In this document: in pieces, positions 2,991 through 61,867 of the stretch
Numbering within the stretch: the stretch's first letter is position 1
How the letters are laid out: every line of letters begins with the position of its first letter
Assembly: GCA_028821575.1 (NCBI GenBank)
Contig: JAPPFW010000004.1
Coordinates: forward strand, 1 to 61,867
Source of the DNA: a bacterium
Lineage (GTDB): Bacteria > Actinomycetota > Acidimicrobiia > Spongiisociales > Spongiisociaceae
DNA: 61,867 nt
Direction: 5' to 3'
Made by a program: the position numbers and the translations under genes
The notes under the pieces: model-generated
The model's input: only the letters and a program-made list of their open reading frames with translations
What the model was told of the DNA's origin: nothing
Databases searched by the model: none

Positions 2991-3207
2991 GGTCGCTCGT
3001 TCCCCGACTCCGTGATCATATCCCGCTCCAACAGGCCATTAGTGCAAATCGCGCCCTTCGCGTCCAGATCGACCGAACCCGAATCGATCCGAAGGTCGAA
3101 GACGTGAAGTCGTTAGCGCGGGGGCACCCGGGCGTTCGGGCGCTGTCCGTCAAGGCAGGGCGCCGCCCATGTTGATAGATTCGGTTCGAGCAACCCTGGA
3201 GGTGAGG

Positions 3208-3567
3208 ATGATCAAGCTCATCGGGACGGCGTACAAGCGGGACGACTTCACTACCGAGGAGTTCTTCGATTACTGGTTCGACGTACATGCGCCGATATCG
3301 GCATCCCTTCCGGGGTTGAGGGGTTACGTGGTCTCCGAGGTGGTCCGGAAGTTGGGCGGCGAACTCGAGACGGAGGCCTTCGTGGAGCAGTGGTACGACG
3401 ACGAGGAAGCCTGGGACCGCGCCTCCGCCACCCCGACGGCCGCTGCTGCCTGGGAGGATGTGGGCAACTACGCCAAGACGACCGGGACTTTCTGGGTGGT
3501 CAAGGAACATGTGATCGTGCCGCCGCCGGACCGGGGCCCGGGGCTGGCCGCCGGCTGGAAGGAGTGA
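3208..3567 (+). CDS. EthD family protein
   Basis: MIKL..KRDDFTTEEFFDYWFDVHAP..LPGLRGY signature; GGAGG RBS. Confidence 0.85.
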   Translation: MIKLIGTAYKRDDFTTEEFFDYWFDVHAPISASLPGLRGYVVSEVVRKLGGELETEAFVEQWYDDEEAWDRASATPTAAAAWEDVGNYAKTTGTFWVVKEHVIVPPPDRGPGLAAGWKE

Positions 3568-3569
3568 GC

Positions 3570-4355
3570 ATGAGGCGGTTCGAGGGCAAGAACGTATTCG
3601 TCACCGGTGCAGGGAGCGGCTTCGGAAGGCGCACGGCGCAGCGCTTCGCCGAGGAGGGTGCACGGCACGTCTACATGGTGGACTACAAGCAGGAACGTCT
3701 CGACGAAGCCGCTCCGTCCATCGAGGCGTCCGGAGCGATCGCGCACAAGATCTGCCTGGACATGGGCGACATGGACAACTGCGTAGAGGCCATGGCCGAG
3801 GCGTTGGAGATCGATCCCAGGCTGGACGTCCTGGTGTCGAACGCCGGCGCGTGGGTCGACGTCCCTTTCATCGACATGGCTACCTCCGACTGGAGGCGGA
3901 TACTCTCGGTGAACCTCGACGCCTATTTCGTCTTGGCGCGGGAGGCGGCACAGGCGATGAAGAAGACCGGTGGGGGGGTCATCCTGTTCACGTCTTCGAT
4001 CGTGGCCCTCGGTCACGGGCGGGGGTTCACGGCCTACTGCGTCTCCAAGGCAGCGCTGGTGTCTCTGGCCAGGGCGATCGCGGTGGAGTGCGCCCCTTAC
4101 GGGATCCGGGCCAACTGTGTGAGTCCTGGCCCTGCCGACACCCAGCAGTCGGTCGACCTGGTGGGTGAGGAACTGATGGACAAGTGGCGCATGCACGGGT
4201 TCCCGGTGGTCCCCGCCAACCGCTTGGCCGACGACAGCGATATCGCCGAAGCCTTCCTATACCTGGCATCCGACGCGGCCAAGTACGTGAGCGGGGTCAA
4301 CCTGGTCGTCGATGGCGCTCTCACAGCCCAGACCTACGACGTCCCTGAGAGTTGA
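3570..4355 (+). CDS. Short-chain dehydrogenase/reductase (SDR)
   Basis: TGAGSGFG, SNAG, YCVSK (YxxxK), VSPG, VDG motifs. Confidence 0.9.
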   Translation: MRRFEGKNVFVTGAGSGFGRRTAQRFAEEGARHVYMVDYKQERLDEAAPSIEASGAIAHKICLDMGDMDNCVEAMAEALEIDPRLDVLVSNAGAWVDVPFIDMATSDWRRILSVNLDAYFVLAREAAQAMKKTGGGVILFTSSIVALGHGRGFTAYCVSKAALVSLARAIAVECAPYGIRANCVSPGPADTQQSVDLVGEELMDKWRMHGFPVVPANRLADDSDIAEAFLYLASDAAKYVSGVNLVVDGALTAQTYDVPES

Positions 4356-4389: not shown

Positions 4390-4464
4390 TGGCTGGTGGC
4401 TGGTGGCTGGTGGCTGGTGGCTGGTGGCTGGTGGCTTGTGGCTGGTGGCTGGTGGCTGGTGGCT
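4390..4464. repeat. Heptamer tandem repeat (TGGCTGG)x~10.7
   Basis: Read directly; one variant unit TGGCTTG. Confidence 0.95.
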
Positions 4465-22676: not shown

Positions 22677-22731
22677 GGTCAGTGGTCAGTGGTCAGTGGT
22701 CAGTGGTCAGTGGTCAGTGGTCAGTGGTCAG
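22677..22731. repeat. Heptamer tandem repeat (GGTCAGT)x~8
   Basis: Read directly; followed by a degenerate complementary C-rich tract. Confidence 0.95.
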
Positions 22732-23592: not shown

Positions 23593-23618
23593 CTGGTGGC
23601 TGGTGGCTGGTGGCTGGT
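23593..23618. repeat. Heptamer repeat (CTGGTGG)x~3.7
   Basis: Same unit as 4390-4464. Confidence 0.8.
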
Positions 23619-24626: not shown

Positions 24627-24716
24627 GTCTGCTTTAGGTGTTGGGTGTTGGGTGCTAGGTGTCATGGGTTGGGTGTTGGGAGTTCGGGTACAGCGTGTCG
24701 GGTGCCGGGCTGCCGG

Positions 24717-55447: not shown

Positions 55448-55524
55448 GGGGCTGTAGCTCAGTTCGGCAGAGCACCTCGTTCGCAACGAGGGGGTCAGGG
55501 GTTCAAATCCCCTCAGCTCCACCA
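55448..55524 (+). tRNA. tRNA-Ala (anticodon CGC)
   Basis: GGGGCTG/CAGCTCC acceptor stem with G3:U70, anticodon arm CCTCG-TTCGCAA-CGAGG, GTTCAAATC T-loop, encoded CCA. Confidence 0.97.
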
Positions 55525-55635
55525 TAACGTTTCACATGATTCCAGAAAACCCCACTGACCAGGCCTTTCGTAGTCTCAAGTGCCGTTGGTCGTTTCAGGA
55601 GATGCCAGTTGACACCCCTTAGTCCCGCACCTAAA

Positions 55636-55708
55636 GTAGTACCAGAAGTAGTTACCGCTGTCAGAAGTAGTAACTGCTCTGTTGGATGGATACTACTTCT
55701 GGTACTAC
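55636..55708. repeat. 17-bp perfect inverted repeat plus direct repeats (putative integrase arm-type sites)
   Basis: GTAGTACCAGAAGTAGT (55636-55652) / ACTACTTCTGGTACTAC (55692-55708); CAGAAGTAGT again at 55662-55671. Confidence 0.7.
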
Positions 55709-57445: not shown

Positions 57446-57712
57446 TTATCTTGATCGGGGAGGGCTCGGGGCCGGTGTGGTGATGGTGGTTTGGTCGTGG
57501 GTTTGTAGGCGGGATTGGACGGCTTGTTCGCTGATGTTGAGCCATTTGGCCATGCGGTACATGCTGATCCCAGCGGCGCGTCCGGCGGCTAGTTGGGTGG
57601 TGACCGCGGCGGAGGCTTCGGCGCGGGTCTGTTCGATGGCCTGGTAGGTGTCCCATGCCTGGCGGAGGCGGTTGTGGATGTCGTTGGGGTCTGGGGGTTG
57701 TTGGGTGCTCAC
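57446..57712 (-). CDS. Small HTH DNA-binding protein (probable repressor; GTG start inferred)
   Basis: GRAAGISMYRMAKWLNISEQAVQSRL helix-turn-helix pattern. Confidence 0.65.
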   Translation of the reverse strand: MSTQQPPDPNDIHNRLRQAWDTYQAIEQTRAEASAAVTTQLAAGRAAGISMYRMAKWLNISEQAVQSRLQTHDQTTITTPAPSPPRSR

Positions 57713-57770
57713 GCGGGCCGTCGTGGTGGGATGTGTTGGGGGGATGGTAACGGGGGCCGGTGTTACATAC

Positions 57771-57833
57771 TTGACATACCCAACCAGCCTTGTATACTCA
57801 ACTGATCTTGTGTACCCAACTAACCTTGTGTAT
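57771..57833 (+). promoter_or_regulatory. Sigma70-like promoter (TTGACA-N16-TATACT) overlapped by three 18-bp direct repeats
   Basis: TTGACA 57771-57776, TATACT 57793-57798; repeats ATACCCAACCAGCCTTGT / ATACTCAACTGATCTTGT / GTACCCAACTAACCTTGT (57776-57829). Confidence 0.7.
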
Positions 57834-57853
57834 GAGGGGAGTGTGAACACTCG

Positions 57854-58453
57854 ATGGTCATAGCGACAGCATCCGCGGATCGGCCGCCGGCCGGGCGCCG
57901 CTGCGGGGATGCTTACGGGTTGGGGTATCGGACAGCCCGTGCCGCCGTGTTGGCCCACAACGGGGGCCGGTGCGTTTTCTGCGGTCTTGAGGCCGCGGTG
58001 GAGGCTCATCACAGCGCTTGGCGTTATCCGTGCGGCAGCGACACGCCTTGTTGCGGCCGCCGCAAGGTCGAGCCTTCGGATCTGGTGGGGCTGTGTGGGC
58101 TGTGTCACGAGATGGTTACGACGTTGCGCCGTTACCGCCGGGCGGGCGGCGACATCTACATGTTGGTGGCCCGGTTCAAGGAGGCAGTAGCGGAATGCGG
58201 TACAGGATCAGAGTTCGGGGACTTAGCCCCATCATCTGCCACAACGGAGCGGCCGGGTTGGACACCCGGTCGGCTGCCAACGTCGAAAAAGCGCAGATCG
58301 CGCGAAAGCGGGGATCTGACCGGACTGAAGCTGACGAGGTCCGCCTCCGAGAGCTGGAGTGTTACACCTCTCTTTACCTCGACGAGAGGGGAGCGCCTAC
58401 GCTCCCTGCGGCAGCGTTTCGGGCGAACATCGAAGCAGCCGCCCGCAAGCTGA
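57854..58453 (+). CDS. HNH endonuclease-like zinc-binding protein; C-terminal part overlaps the next gene
   Basis: GRCVFCG..AVEAHH..DLVGLCGLCHE (CxxC..HH..LCxxCH). Confidence 0.65.
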   Translation: MVIATASADRPPAGRRCGDAYGLGYRTARAAVLAHNGGRCVFCGLEAAVEAHHSAWRYPCGSDTPCCGRRKVEPSDLVGLCGLCHEMVTTLRRYRRAGGDIYMLVARFKEAVAECGTGSEFGDLAPSSATTERPGWTPGRLPTSKKRRSRESGDLTGLKLTRSASESWSVTPLFTSTRGERLRSLRQRFGRTSKQPPAS

Positions 58454-58791
58454 GGCAGGGTCCCCAGGTGCGGGAAGGGCTCATAGTCGAAGAAGTCGAA
58501 GCCTTCGACTACGACCGGTCGTTGGGTACCACCGGGCCGGAGTTGGCCCGCAACGCCCAGTTCACCGTCGGTGTGCGGGTGCGACAGTCCCGGCTGCTGC
58601 GTACACGGGCCCGGTTCGATGAGTGGGCTGCCACGTTCCGGGTGGATACAGATCCCGAGTTGGTGGACCAAGAACAGCTGCTGGTGTGGTTAGACATAGG
58701 CGGTCGCCGGCTCGGGGTGGGGGACTGGCGACCGGAGAAGTCAGGACTACACGGCCGGTTCGAGGTGGAGAGCATCGAGACGCTCTCATAG
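58195..58791 (+). CDS. Stand-alone Cas7/RAMP-superfamily protein (198 aa)
   Basis: AAGGAGG RBS; N-terminal strand RIRVRGLSPIICHNG; G.PTLPAAAFRANIEAAAR (cf. Csm3/Cmr4 G.P.IPGSSLKG.LR); C-terminal G-rich loop LGVGDWRPEKSGLHGRFEV. Confidence 0.75.
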   Translation: MRYRIRVRGLSPIICHNGAAGLDTRSAANVEKAQIARKRGSDRTEADEVRLRELECYTSLYLDERGAPTLPAAAFRANIEAAARKLRQGPQVREGLIVEEVEAFDYDRSLGTTGPELARNAQFTVGVRVRQSRLLRTRARFDEWAATFRVDTDPELVDQEQLLVWLDIGGRRLGVGDWRPEKSGLHGRFEVESIETLS

Positions 58792-58800
58792 AGACGTCAT

Positions 58801-58945
58801 GGCTAGGCATGGCTAGGCGCGGCACGGCGAGGCCGGGCTCGGCTTGGCGAGGCATGGCTTGGCATGGCTGGGCAAGGAAACCGAAGGGGCCGGGGGAACG
58901 ACCTAACCGTCATAGACGGAGTGGTAACCCTCCACCCCTCCGGGA
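58801..58945 (+). ncRNA. Putative guide-like ncRNA: 15 x GGC-NN pentamer array (58801-58875) plus a structured 3' tail
   Basis: GGCTA GGCAT GGCTA GGCGC GGCAC GGCGA GGCCG GGCTC GGCTT GGCGA GGCAT GGCTT GGCAT GGCTG GGCAA; tail has a CCGTC-ATA-GACGG hairpin inside G-rich/C-rich arms. The repeat is certain; the RNA role is inferred. Confidence 0.6.
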
Positions 58946-59117: not shown

Positions 59118-59157
59118 AGGGGCCGGTTCCACATCGGATGGTGGAGAACCGGCCCCT
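59118..59157. terminator. Stem-loop between the convergent RAMP operon and alpA
   Basis: AGGGGCCGGTTC..GAACCGGCCCCT 12-bp stem. Confidence 0.7.
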
Positions 59158-59185: not shown

Positions 59186-59443
59186 TCACGCCGCGGTGGG
59201 GAGAGCATCGATCCAGGCCTGGATGTCGCTGAGGCGCCATCCTCTCGCGCGGGTGCCCTCGGGACCCAGCGGTATCGAGGGCGGGAACGATCCGTCGTCG
59301 ATCCGCCGCCAGATCGTCGTTCTGCTCAGACCGGTCAGCTCGCAAACCTCCCCGATGCGGACAATACGGTCTCCCATCTGACAGGTGCATGTGTTGTCGG
59401 TGACGAGGCGGAGCCTCGGTCGACGCTGGGCTGTGGATGCCAT
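59186..59443 (-). CDS. AlpA family phage regulator / excisionase
   Basis: RIVRIGEVCELTGLSRTTIWRRIDDGSFPPSIPLG..RGWRLSDIQAWI; AAAGGAG RBS. Confidence 0.9.
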   Translation of the reverse strand: MASTAQRRPRLRLVTDNTCTCQMGDRIVRIGEVCELTGLSRTTIWRRIDDGSFPPSIPLGPEGTRARGWRLSDIQAWIDALPTAA

Positions 59444-59480: not shown

Positions 59481-59531
59481 GCCATATCGGGCCACACGGG
59501 GCCATACGGGGCCATACCGGGGCCACACGGC
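59481..59531. repeat. Five ~10-bp tandem repeats GCCAYAC/TGGG upstream of alpA
   Basis: GCCATATCGG GCCACACGGG GCCATACGGG GCCATACCGGG GCCACACGGC; GGCCACAC pairs recur near 59575-59590, 61173-61192 and 61223-61241. Confidence 0.8.
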
Positions 59532-60010
59532 CCCTGGTCAGAGCGCATTTCCGAGAACGTCCACCTGCGCCGGATGTGGCCCGTGTGGCCGACTCCGTCC
59601 CTGGTCGCCCTCTCTTGGTGGGGGTCCTCGCCGAGGGAGACTACGAGCCGGCTGCGTCGCCGGGCTGTTGTCCATCTCTAGTCCCAGTACGCTCGCCAAC
59701 CGGGGCGCATGGGTGCTGCCTCCACAAGACGGTGCCAGGTGGCGACGTGCTGGCCGCCGTCCCCCGCACGCGGACGGTCACCGGGGTGACCACGGCCCAG
59801 GCTGGTCACGGAACGGCGTGAAGCAGGAAGGTCACGGGGATCGGACCGCACCGTCGGTGGCGGTATCGATGGCGGCGGGCCGCACGTTCAGCGCGTGTTG
59901 GTTTGGGCTTCGGTGCCTCGGTTCCGACGATCGACTTGCCTTGCCGGTAGTCGGAACTGTCGATCTCGGCGCCCGCAGCGACGCAACCACAGCCACCTCC
60001 CTGGCACAGA

Positions 60011-60067
60011 CAAATGGCCGTTGAGGGGGGGTGGGCACAGTGCCCACCCCCCCTCAACGGCCATTTG
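60011..60067. repeat. 57-bp perfect palindrome (28-bp arms, 1-nt centre)
   Basis: CAAATGGCCGTTGAGGGGGGGTGGGCAC-A-GTGCCCACCCCCCCTCAACGGCCATTTG. Confidence 0.95.
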
Positions 60068-61867
60068 ACCGCCAGCGGGCGCAGAACGGTCGTGTTGGGA
60101 GCGTTGTGGCGCTATCAGGAAGCGTCGGTTCTTGCTGGTGTACCGAGTCGGGGGAGTCTCGTCATCGGGTCAGACTGCCTGTGGTATCTCGAGAATCTCG
60201 GGTGGCTGATCCCTGCTTCAGCCGCCTGCGGGTGGGTCGTTGTGCGACCACTCCTGGTAGTAGCGGGCGAGTTCCTCACGGTGGAATGCCTGGGCTAGAT
60301 CGGGAACCGATGCAGCCTCGATAAAGACTGCGGGGCACTGCCAGTAGCGGTCGAATGCCTTACGGCTGTCCGGCAGGGCTAGCAGCTCTTCCCGGCGTGC
60401 GGGTGACGTGTTCTTCGGGGGTAGCCGGAGGGCGGTGGTGGCGCTTCGCCTAGTTTCTTCGGCTGCTCGGCCTTGTACTCCGCCTCCCCACTTGGCATTG
60501 GGGTTGCCTTCCTTTCGGGTCGGAGTCCCCCGCCGGCCTGGCGCTGCGCCCGGTCGTCGCGGTGGTTTCGTTACCTCACGTTCTGCTGCTTGGTAGGTAG
60601 GGCGACCTGGCGGCAGGATTCGTCCTTGTCTGCTTGGCGTCGATGCATACCCGTTCGAGGTCGTGGAGCCGTCCGCGTTGTCGTACTCGTCGGCGGCCAG
60701 AGCGGGTCACGGCCCTTATTGGCGAGATCCCGCATCCAATCCTTGACACCCATCTCCGACCGTTGCCAGCGTCATCGCCCCGGCGGGGATGTACACGAAC
60801 TGTTGTTTCGTTAGATCGGCCCGGGCCTGATGGTCGACGCCGTCCTGGTGGCTAGACAACTAGGGTTGTCGCCGTGGTCGGTCATGATCGTCCCGTCGGT
60901 AACCATCTCCTGAACCTCGGCCGCCAAGCCGAGCAGCCGAGCGCTGCCTGGAGGGCAGTCCCCTTCGACCGCTGCAGCCGCCGTGCGACCAGCGCGTTGT
61001 GGTGGGCGGATGCATGGTCACCACCGTCGGCGTAGTTGAAAACAGCGCCCAGAACCCCCTCAGACGCGTAATACCCGGCGAGGGCGACACCGATTTTCGC
61101 AGTACTCAAACCCATCAGAAGCTGCATCACGCCAAGGGCGGCCACACGAACGCTCTCCGCAAGGCGCGAGGCGGCCACACCGGGGCCACACCAACCCCGC
61201 GAAACCCCAGGTAGTCCTACCAGTGTGGCCCCCGTGTGGCCGCATAGCGCGAAATCCGCCAGATCGGTCTCCCCACAGCCCGTCAGAGCGACCTGTTCGG
61301 GATACTAGGGCAGCGGAGGTGCCGCCGGGACCCCTGAGCAATGCCCAGGAAAAGCCGCCGCCGGTCGGTTACGAATGCCCAAGCACTTGCCCCGAGACGC
61401 GACCACGACGCGCAGAGCCGCCTGAAGAAAGCCGAAACCGAGTCGAAACGCCGATATTGACCGACCGAAGCAGCCGAAGCGAGCTACGGGGCCGTGATAG
61501 CGACGGAACTACGAGTTTGGAGGACCCCTGAATACATCGGTGAAGTGATCGACCGCACCCCGCTGGCAGTCCGCAAAACGTGGCTCCCACCAGTAGCCGA
61601 ACTCCCGCCGACAACCCGAGTTACAAAGGGGGTTTCCTAACGGCAAAGGGGGCTTTGGCATTTTAACGCAAACGTGTACGGCATCTTCTATCAGACTCTG
61701 TCTTGGTTGCTTGCTCTCACGGTTTGGTCCCATCTGCTCTTCTGTCTCTACTCTTGGGATTCGTCTGCTGCTCTGTTGATGATCGTTGAAACTCCCCAGT
61801 CTTGATCGTTGGAATTCCCCTTTACCTTGTTAGGTAGCTCTGATGTGTGATTATCGGGGCGGTTGCT

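What the first reader, a model, noticed from the sequence alone, without database searches (positions are those of the whole stretch)
58801..58875. The pentamer array carries information: invariant GGC, hypervariable AT-rich NN
Seen: GGC is conserved in 15/15 units, while NN reads TA AT TA GC AC GA CG TC TT GA AT TT AT TG AA. That is 10 different dinucleotides, 9 of 30 bases G/C in a strongly GC-rich window, and never GG or CC. A slippage microsatellite would homogenise whole units or mutate positions evenly, as the heptamer tracts elsewhere in this window do. Inference: the NNs encode a target, either contiguous (TAATTAGCACGACGTCTTGAATTTATTGAA) or gapped (e.g. TAnATnTAnGCnACnGAnCGnTCnTTnGAnATnTTnATnTGnAA, or its reverse complement). 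The AT bias points to a promoter or lower-GC phage DNA. I saw no convincing match within this window by eye.
Basis: partly seen in the sequence, partly recalled or inferred. Interest (0 to 1): 0.85.

Follow-up and report, generated by a model that had tools for sequence, protein, structure and literature searches.

The report
VIPR guide RNA repeat tract
The 15 GGCNN pentamers are the guide part of a VIPR RNA, a recently described phage-derived, CRISPR-like system in which a small RAMP protein holds each GGC and the variable NN pairs read a DNA target with every third base skipped; this copy sits on a small integrated element in a sponge symbiont, and its target was not found.

Summary
Window 58801-58875 is 15 tandem GGCNN units with GGC in 15 of 15 and ten different NN. 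It is the only such array in the 4.14 Mb genome.

The array starts 10 nt after the stop of a 198-aa gene (58195-58791). That protein matches the solved "SUSP1 Vipr protein", PDB 36pp (profile E 5e-49; single sequence 7.9e-14). It models as a Cas7/Csm3-like RAMP and keeps the residues that hold G1, G2 and Y3.

Distant homologues carry GGYNN arrays on the same strand: 56 of 65 IMG/VR loci, against 2 of 65 on the opposite strand. Three 2026 preprints describe this system as VIPR. In them the NN dinucleotides pair with dsDNA under a one-base-skip rule (NNx).

An HNH-like gene upstream and a single guide RNA point to the nuclease-bearing "type III"; this is my inference.

I found no convincing target in the own genome, 29 family genomes, IMG/VR or JGI metagenomes. 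The best hit was 26 of 30 in a 34% GC viral contig, which is about what chance gives.

Verdict: a new member of a known kind.

The parts
55448..55524 (+). tRNA-Ala (CGC). Its 3' end is the left attachment site of the integrated element.
   Evidence: ARAGORN. A 25-nt copy of its 3' end without a tRNA lies on contig C73:951-976.
55682..56896 (+). Tyrosine integrase of the element.
   Evidence: Pfam Phage_integrase E 1.1e-22, Phage_int_M 4.4e-21, Arm-DNA-bind_3 1.5e-12.
57446..58108 (-). ORF with a C-terminal HTH, a likely regulator. The true start is probably internal. It is divergent from the VIPR operon.
   Evidence: phrog_686 HTH DNA-binding protein, E 1.1e-4, residues 142-208. Homologous in L017 and L018.
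57771..57832 (+). Promoter-like site (TTGACA, 16 nt, TATACT; 57771-57798) overlapping three copies of an 18-bp repeat (57777-57832), upstream of the HNH gene.
   Evidence: 11 of 12 consensus matches. TRF period 18, 3.1 copies. Function is inferred.
57854..58453 (+). HNH-like accessory gene (candidate vap nuclease). The ORF overlaps vipr by 259 nt in another frame.
   Evidence: PHROG HNH endonuclease families, best E 5.6e-5; no Pfam hit. Homologous ORF upstream of vipr in L017 (64% identity), L018 (64%) and L024 (39%).
58195..58791 (+). vipr gene: 198-aa RAMP protein (P0001) that binds the repeat tract.
   Evidence: phrog_4652 E 2.7e-32. PDB 36pp_D 'SUSP1 Vipr protein': E 5e-49 with profile, 7.9e-14 single sequence. 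AF2 pLDDT 97.6. Foldseek best hits are Csm3/Cas7, TM 0.5-0.57. H16, R138, D177, W178 and R179 present.
58801..58875 (+). vrRNA guide tract: 15 GGCNN units (16 YNNGG units if read from 58798 to 58877).
   Evidence: Same strand as vipr and 10 nt after its stop. Unit number is within the published 9-16.
58876..58945 (+). Putative vrRNA 3' tail: a long imperfect GC-rich hairpin (about 58881-58943).
   Evidence: MFE -33.1 kcal/mol, z -2.39. Comparable hairpins follow the arrays in L017 (z -4.64), L019 (z -3.66) and L018 (z -0.90). In a 4-sequence alignment, 3 of 13 pairs show compensatory changes. RNA ends are not mapped.
59119..59156 (.). Strong hairpin between the convergent VIPR operon and alpA. 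It is a possible transcript end.
   Evidence: Sequence and fold. The terminator scan did not call it because there is no T run. Inferred only.
59186..59443 (-). AlpA-family excisionase/regulator of the element.
   Evidence: Pfam Phage_AlpA E 1e-13. phrog_2790 E 1e-11.

Best explanation
The array is the guide tract of a VIPR RNA (vrRNA).

Proposed mechanism:
- The HNH-vipr-vrRNA unit is transcribed on the + strand, probably from the promoter-like site at 57771-57798 (inferred).
- One Vipr protomer binds each pentamer. Residues H16 and D177 hold G1, R138 and W178 hold G2, and R179 helps hold the pyrimidine. This reading is by homology to the SUSP1 structure.
- The 15 NN dinucleotides are thereby presented for pairing with a DNA strand that reads NNx repeated, with one base skipped per unit. 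The footprint is 44 bp with 30 informative positions.
- In characterised relatives this binding silences transcription. Here the adjacent HNH-like gene suggests target cutting. That step, and the assignment to 'type III' (HNH accessory gene plus a single vrRNA), are my inferences from the preprint's text.
- The system rides on a small element integrated at tRNA-Ala, with an integrase and AlpA, in an Acidimicrobiia sponge symbiont.

Shown here: array anatomy, protein family, conserved contact residues, the array-protein association across phyla, and no self-target.
From the literature: the pairing rule and the filament.
Not shown here: expression, RNA ends, the target, and nuclease action.
For: (1) Protein family. 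P0001 matches PDB 36pp_D 'SUSP1 Vipr protein' (E 5e-49 with a 69-sequence profile, E 7.9e-14, residues 4-193 aligned, shared GVGDWRP...GRF loop). The AF2 model has pLDDT 97.6. Its best Foldseek hits are Csm3/Cas7 RAMPs.

(2) Contact residues. The residues that contact G1, G2 and Y3 in SUSP1 (H17, D177, R138, W178, R179) are present as H16, D177, R138, W178 and R179.

(3) Array features. 15 GGCNN units on the vipr strand, 10 nt after its stop, followed by a hairpin tail. The published vrRNAs have 9-16 units plus a structured tail.

(4) Association across homologues.
- GGYNN arrays with at least 6 conforming units lie on the vipr strand in 56 of 65 IMG/VR loci and on the opposite strand in 2 of 65.
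- By my reading of the listing, 7 of the 10 genome-contig loci (L023-L032) carry them.
- They also occur in phages LittleE, Trine and wV8, where the protein is 26-32% identical.

(5) NN varies while the scaffold stays. Window, G024, G010 and G012 arrays differ in NN. By contrast, microsatellites in G001 and G006 are homogeneous.

(6) No self-target. The best score in the own genome is 20 of 30 at skips 0, 1 and 2; shuffled-order maxima are 19-22. At skip 3 the only higher score is the array itself. This matches the published absence of self-targets.

(7) Accessory gene. The HNH-like ORF is conserved upstream of vipr in 3 of the 5 related loci of this clade that hold a full-length vipr match (L017, L018, L024; not L023; L019 is truncated).
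Against: - No natural target was found. There were 0 hits with up to 3 mismatches in 29 family genomes, whether with the full pattern or with either 12-unit half.
- IMG/VR gave no exact full match. Among 141 seed loci, the best score is 26 of 30 in a 34% GC contig, and all top hits are in contigs of 22-41% GC. An iid model expects about 0.1-0.2 such hits per 1e10 AT-rich positions.
- The single JGI metagenome seed hit scores 21 of 30.
- No RNA run holds the locus, so expression is untested.
- The tail structure rests on 4 sequences.
- The HNH assignment is weak in score (E 5.6e-5, no Pfam hit).
- The type call is made without seeing the preprint's figures or data files.
Confidence: 0.9

Rival explanations
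1. The locus is a VIPR remnant or decoy. The protein and repeat tract are real VIPR parts, but this vrRNA has no current target. It could be an orphaned guide, or a guide used to redirect or soak up another element's Vipr, as reported for satellite 'solo' vrRNAs.
For: No target above chance in any collection searched. Relatives show decay: truncated vipr copies and a solo 10-unit array in G012, and an in-frame stop in the L023 vipr. The abstract of 10.64898/2026.10.15.759431 describes decoy-directed solo vrRNAs.
Against: Here vipr is full length with all contact residues, and GGC is perfect in 15 of 15 units. This argues for ongoing selection. The searches were insensitive: collections were scanned only through exact seeds, and uncultured sponge mobile elements are poorly sampled.
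Confidence: 0.07
2. The array is a periodic protein-binding RNA in which only GGC matters, and the NN are unconstrained spacers with no information (a TRAP-like arrangement of triplets with 2-nt spacers).
For: This was my working idea before the family was identified. NN varies freely among relatives, and the N4 composition is biased towards purines. Either fact could reflect structural preference alone.
Against: For homologues, the preprint reports that changing NN alone reprograms targeting, that only one-base-skip targets are bound under competition, and that the structure shows NN paired to DNA.
Confidence: 0.02
3. The array is an ordinary slippage microsatellite or a chance repeat in a GC-rich intergenic region.
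For: Tandem repeats, including heptamers, are common in this window.
Against: 0 of 100 shuffles give even six units. It is unique in the genome. Its association with one protein family holds across phyla. Real pentamer microsatellites in the family have homogeneous units.
Confidence: 0.01

Closest known systems
VIPR system of Escherichia phage SUSP1 (type II; PDB 36pp; bioRxiv 10.64898/2026.04.26.720920 and 10.64898/2026.04.26.720927)
   Same: Homologous Vipr protein (E 5e-49 with profile) with conserved G1/G2/Y3 contact residues. Tandem GGY/NN pentamers on the same strand, followed by a structured 3' tail. No self-target.
   Different: SUSP1 has four vrRNAs of GGT-rich units and a DNA-binding accessory protein (vap1), and sits in a lytic phage. 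The window has one vrRNA, all-GGC units, an HNH-like accessory gene that overlaps vipr, a hairpin tail (no pseudoknot was sought), and lies on a tRNA-integrated element in a 65% GC Acidimicrobiia genome.
Type III VIPR systems (as described in the text of 10.64898/2026.04.26.720920)
   Same: The preprint text says some systems encode only one vrRNA, that types III-V carry predicted enzymes, and that an HNH domain is among the accessory proteins shown for types II, III and VII. The window has one vrRNA and an HNH-like gene.
   Different: I could not see the figures, the tree or data S4, so the type is inferred, not placed by phylogeny. The preprint finds type III enriched in defence islands. Here the carrier is a small integrase/AlpA element.
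Class 1 CRISPR Cas7 (Csm3) backbone on crRNA
   Same: RAMP fold with G-loop and thumb. One protomer binds per RNA repeat length, with periodic base flipping.
   Different: Cas7 flips one base in six of a contiguous spacer. Vipr sequesters three of five guide bases and skips one of three target bases. There is no CRISPR array, no Cas1/Cas2, and no other cas genes in the locus.
TRAP (trp RNA-binding attenuation protein) binding sites (recalled, not from a call)
   Same: Many conserved triplets separated by 2-3 variable spacer bases, each bound by one subunit of an oligomer.
   Different: TRAP spacers carry no information and the protein fold is unrelated. Here the spacers are the guide.

Membership tests
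VIPR system | Vipr protein: a single-RRM RAMP with glycine-rich loop and thumb, homologous to characterised Vipr proteins | tested here: met
   PDB 36pp_D SUSP1 Vipr: E 5e-49 and 7.9e-14. AF2 pLDDT 97.6. Foldseek top hits are Csm3/Cas7.
VIPR system | Residues that hold G1 (H17, D177), G2 (R138, W178) and Y3 (R179) of each repeat | tested here: met
   H16, D177, R138, W178 and R179 in P0001.
VIPR system | vrRNA tract of about 9-16 tandem GGY/NN (YNNGG) units next to vipr on the same strand | tested here: met
   15 GGCNN units at 58801-58875, 10 nt after the vipr stop. Unique in the genome.
VIPR system | Structured, conserved 3' tail after the repeat tract | tested here: inconclusive
   A hairpin is predicted (z -2.39) with similar hairpins in 3 relatives. 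Only 4 sequences are available, and 3 of 13 pairs are compensatory. RNA ends are unmapped.
VIPR system | Accessory (vap) gene in the operon | tested here: met
   HNH-like ORF 57854-58453 (PHROG E 5.6e-5), conserved upstream of vipr in L017, L018 and L024. The match is weak, and the gene has not been compared with the published vap families.
VIPR system | vrRNA is expressed and bound by Vipr | not testable with these tools
   No RNA run is listed for the locus.
VIPR system | A natural DNA target matching at least 80% of NN positions under the one-base-skip rule, and none in the own contig | tested here: inconclusive
   Own genome maximum is 20 of 30, equal to the shuffled level. Family genomes give 0 hits. 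The best hit elsewhere is 26 of 30 in a 34% GC viral contig, near chance expectation.
VIPR type III | Placement in the type III clade of the Vipr tree, with a nuclease accessory gene and a single vrRNA | tested here: inconclusive
   A single array and an HNH-like gene are seen. The tree, figures and data S4 of the preprint were not available, so no phylogenetic placement was made.
CRISPR-Cas | CRISPR array of direct repeats with contiguous spacers, plus cas adaptation genes | tested here: not met
   No such array or cas genes appear in the ORF and family scans of 55-62 kb.

The most novel reading that the evidence does not exclude
In this sponge-symbiont clade, the repeat scaffold and the protein appear to change together.

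- The window protein keeps both G1 contacts (H16, D177) and has G at position 1 in 15 of 15 units.
- The 83%-identical G024 protein has D16 and N177, and only 4 of its 13 called units start with G.
- The G010 protein has N16, and 6 of its 9 called units start with G.

If this pattern is real, relatives read an xGYNN scaffold, and position 1 may become a third variable, possibly informative, base.

Together with an HNH gene that overlaps vipr out of frame, the clade could be a nuclease-armed VIPR variant with an altered code.
Probability: 0.15. Interest if true: 0.55.

Novelty: new member of a known kind. Interest (0 to 1): 0.35.

Why it matters
VIPR was described only in 2026 as an RNA-guided DNA-recognition system older than CRISPR, with a noncontiguous code. 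This locus adds several things.

- It is an intact, minimal example (HNH, vipr, one guide RNA) from an uncultured Acidimicrobiia sponge symbiont.
- It is carried by a small tRNA-integrated element, with close relatives in sponge-associated genomes of other phyla.
- It shows that the code can be recognised from raw sequence alone.
- It offers natural variants, with changed G1 contacts and a relaxed position 1, that could be used to test how the scaffold is read.

It does not change what is known about the mechanism.

Tried and rejected
1. Known RNA families. Rfam at E up to 1 finds nothing at the array. It finds nothing in the three phage loci at E up to 0.1.

2. Pfam, NCBIfam and PADLOC give nothing for the vipr gene. 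Only PHROGs names a family, of unknown function.

3. A TRAP-like, G-quadruplex or origin/iteron reading was considered before the PDB hit. I dropped it once the family was identified.

4. Target searches, all without a convincing result:
- Own genome at skips 0-3.
- Guides of relatives against the own genome, all within the shuffled range.
- 29 family genomes with up to 3 mismatches: full pattern and both 12-unit halves.
- IMG/VR: exact full pattern; 9-unit seeds; 8-unit seeds (141 seed loci scored).
- JGI metagenomes: one 10-unit seed.
- The 26 of 30 hit (L035) lies in a 32-34% GC contig across a gene junction. I treat it as chance.
- Collections could only be scanned with exact seeds, so targets with scattered mismatches would be missed.

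5. The reversed-sequence control gave 25 of 65. It is not a clean control, because reversed arrays keep GG at period 5. The opposite-strand count (2 of 65) is the usable contrast.

6. No RNA holder was listed for the locus. The laid DNA contigs show only that related vipr variants occur in several sponge metagenomes. The differences inside the array were not among the rows shown.

7. A class-level sample of 401 genomes held no other close homologue at E 1e-20 or better.

8. PHROG scans of nine further ORFs of the element gave nothing.

11. Supplementary files of the preprints were not requested. Data S3 and S4 (targets and type lists) may already include this clade.

Full report
**The observation**

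Window 58801-58875 reads as 15 head-to-tail GGCNN units. GGC is present in all 15. The NN are TA AT TA GC AC GA CG TC TT GA AT TT AT TG AA.

A six-unit pattern matches ten times, all inside the array. It matches zero times in each of 100 dinucleotide-preserving shuffles. The window is the whole of contig C2 of a 4.14 Mb, 100-contig assembly with 65% GC. A scan of that assembly for any invariant triplet at period 5 with at least six units finds this array and nothing else. Tandem Repeats Finder sees it only as weak rows, because two positions in five vary.

Two genomes of the same family hold true pentamer microsatellites with homogeneous whole units.

**Surroundings**

- The array begins 10 nt after the TAG stop of a 198-aa ORF (58195-58791, + strand; P0001).
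- Upstream lies an HNH-like ORF (57854-58453). It overlaps the start of P0001's gene out of frame.
- Further upstream are a promoter-like site with 11 of 12 consensus matches inside three 18-bp repeats and a divergent HTH ORF.
- The whole unit follows a tyrosine integrase next to tRNA-Ala.
- Downstream there is a convergent AlpA-family gene.
- A 25-nt copy of the tRNA 3' end, without a tRNA, lies on contig C73. Near it are motifs that also occur beside the integrase. The VIPR unit therefore sits on a small integrated element whose right end is on another contig.
- The record title of a same-genus genome names Candidatus Spongiisociaceae, class Acidimicrobiia. The DNA occurs in sponge metagenome runs.

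**What the protein is**

Pfam, NCBIfam and PADLOC give nothing. PHROGs gives phrog_4652, of unknown function (E 2.7e-32).

The family is large. There are 924 proteins at E up to 0.001 in one collection, none with a functional name, and 2734 cluster representatives in another.

A 69-sequence profile matches one solved structure, PDB 36pp chain D, "SUSP1 Vipr protein" (E 5e-49). The single sequence matches it at 7.9e-14 over residues 4-193. The AlphaFold model is confident (pLDDT 97.6). In a PDB copy that predates 36pp, its best Foldseek matches are Csm3/Cas7 RAMP subunits of type III and type VII CRISPR complexes (TM 0.5-0.57).

**The literature**

A full-text search found three 2026 bioRxiv preprints.

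- 10.64898/2026.04.26.720920. I read the Results, the Discussion, methods sections 18, 20, 26 and 27, and term passages that include supplementary figure legends.
- 10.64898/2026.04.26.720927. I read the Results and term passages.
- 10.64898/2026.10.15.759431. I read the abstract, the outline, section 17 and a term search.

- A small RAMP protein, Vipr, polymerises one protomer per repeat along a vrRNA made of 9-16 GGY/NN pentamers plus a structured 3' tail.
- The protein sequesters each GGY and presents the NN bases.
- The NN bases pair with dsDNA under a one-base-skip rule (NNx), on either strand and without a PAM.
- Binding silences transcription.
- Natural guides target competing phages and satellites, and none target their own contig.
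- Seven types are named. Some encode a single vrRNA, and types III-V carry predicted enzymes. An HNH domain is listed among the accessory proteins shown.

**Membership**

The window meets the features I could test.

- The protein is homologous to a solved Vipr.
- The residues reported to hold G1 (H17, D177), G2 (R138, W178) and Y3 (R179) in SUSP1 are present as H16, D177, R138, W178 and R179.
- The tract has 15 units on the vipr strand.
- A long hairpin follows it (z -2.39). Comparable hairpins follow the arrays of three relatives. The covariation evidence is thin: 4 sequences, with 3 of 13 pairs compensatory.
- The HNH-like ORF recurs upstream of vipr in L017, L018 and L024.

I checked the array-protein association independently.

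- GGYNN arrays with at least six conforming units lie on the vipr strand in 56 of 65 IMG/VR loci that encode a homologue. They lie on the opposite strand in 2 of 65.
- By my reading of the listing, they occur in 7 of 10 genome-contig loci from several phyla.
- They occur in Mycobacterium phage LittleE, Gordonia phage Trine and the Felix-O1-like phage wV8. In wV8 the units are GGT-rich.

Assignment to type III rests on one guide RNA plus an HNH-like gene, together with the preprint's wording. I did not see its tree, figures or data files.

**The target**

I applied the published rule to the window's guide. The results were as follows.

| Collection searched | Method | Result |
|---|---|---|
| Own genome | Skips 0, 1, 2 | Best 20 of 30; shuffled-order maxima 19-22 |
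| Own genome | Skip 3 | Only higher score is the array itself |
| 29 family genomes | Full pattern, up to 3 mismatches | 0 hits |
| 29 family genomes | Each 12-unit half, up to 3 mismatches | 0 hits |
| IMG/VR | Exact full pattern | 0 hits |
| IMG/VR | 9-unit and 8-unit exact seeds | 141 loci; best 26 of 30, next 24 of 30 |
| JGI metagenomes | One 10-unit seed | 1 locus at 21 of 30 |

- All top IMG/VR hits lie in contigs of 22-41% GC. The 26 of 30 site is in a 32-34% GC contig and spans a gene junction.
- An iid model predicts 0.1-0.2 hits of at least 26 of 30 per 1e10 positions at such GC, and tens of hits at the published 80% threshold. I therefore treat this hit as chance.
- Guides from relatives do not hit the own genome above shuffled levels.
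- The natural target is therefore unknown. Collection scans needed exact seeds, and sponge mobile elements are poorly sampled, so this is weak negative evidence.

**NN composition**

I called 284 distinct arrays in 59 loci.

- NN is less GC-rich than its locus in 44 of 59 loci.
- GG is depleted (observed/expected 0.67).
- Position 4 is 71% purine.

The AT bias of this guide (30% GC in a 64% GC locus) is thus common in GC-rich hosts. It fits pairing to codon positions 1 and 2, which the preprint reports for natural targets. It does not by itself point to a promoter or to low-GC phage DNA.

**Turnover among relatives**

The arrays after the 74-83% identical proteins of G024, G010 and G012 have different NN from the window. 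Three of them (G024, G012b and a solo array in G012) share a run of five consecutive NN units. This shows descent with unit-level change.

**Verdict**

The object is an intact VIPR locus, probably of the nuclease-bearing type, on a small integrated element of a sponge symbiont. It is a new member of a system published in 2026. Its own target, expression and nuclease action remain untested.

Noticed in passing
window 58195-58453: The HNH-like ORF runs 259 nt into vipr in another frame. The same frame stays open to a similar end in L017, L018 and L024. Among conserved Vipr residues, synonymous codon differences are fewer in the overlap than in the rest (0.20 vs 0.43, 0.31 vs 0.42, 0.29 vs 0.44). 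The contrast is weaker or absent in the comparisons with L024 (0.48 vs 0.54, 0.53 vs 0.62, 0.53 vs 0.53), and L023, which lacks the HNH gene, also shows a small drop (0.54 vs 0.64). This may be a true overlapping gene.
   Followed up: partly
L017 (G024), L018 (G010), L019 (G012) compared with window 58195-58875: Relatives in which the G1-contact residues are replaced have relaxed position 1 in their repeats. G024 has D16 and N177, with 4 of 13 called units starting with G. G010 has N16, with 6 of 9. G012b has N177 and its N-terminus is missing. The window (H16, D177) has 15 of 15. One IMG/VR locus (L099) with N at the aligned position still has G1 in 99% of units, so the link is anecdotal.
   Followed up: partly
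L009 2722-2795 and 4188-4246 (Mycobacterium phage LittleE); L010 3575-3860 (Gordonia phage Trine): In these actinophages each repeat tract is followed by a tRNA-like minihelix: an acceptor-like stem plus a T-arm with a GGTTCGA-type loop. ARAGORN calls one of them as a degenerate tRNA. The tracts are annotated as parts of hypothetical CDSs (LittleE gene 35, Trine gene 40). The words tRNA, RNase P and T-loop do not occur in the discovery preprint's main text.
   Followed up: partly
window 57777-57832 and 59481-59530: Three copies of an 18-bp repeat overlap the promoter-like site of the VIPR operon. About five copies of a 10-bp repeat lie just upstream of alpA. They are possible operator or arm-type sites.
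   Followed up: no
contig C73:860-980 and window 55620-55690: A 25-nt copy of the tRNA-Ala 3' end without a tRNA lies on C73. Next to it is a motif that also occurs twice beside the integrase. This is the likely right end of the element. The join between C2 and C73 is not assembled.
   Followed up: partly
window 60008-60070: A near-perfect palindrome of about 50 nt draws spurious microRNA hits from Rfam.
   Followed up: no
G012:C1:541867-541914 (L015) and G012:C1:546225-546563, 1491575-1491940: The same-genus genome G012 holds two truncated vipr copies and a 10-unit GGCNN array 4.3 kb from one of them. That array shares five consecutive NN units with the arrays of G024 and G012b. It may be a decayed or solo vrRNA.
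   Followed up: partly
L023 (Paracoccaceae MAG) 3001-3579; L024 (Caldilineaceae MAG) 2279-2694: Close homologues (69% and 58% identity) occur in genomes of other phyla, which suggests horizontal spread. The L023 gene has an in-frame stop at the conserved tryptophan of the G-loop. L024 has four adjoining arrays of about 18-20 units upstream of HNH-vipr.
   Followed up: partly
window 4390-4464, 22677-22731, 23593-23618, 24637-24689: Several heptamer tandem repeats occur, for example 10.7 copies at 97% matches and 7.9 copies at 100%. They were not examined.
   Followed up: no
run X1, contig record 4: The metagenome run that holds the window also has a second, higher-depth contig that matches only the vipr 3' end and part of the array, with an array-like loose end. 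This points to another VIPR locus in the same community.
   Followed up: no
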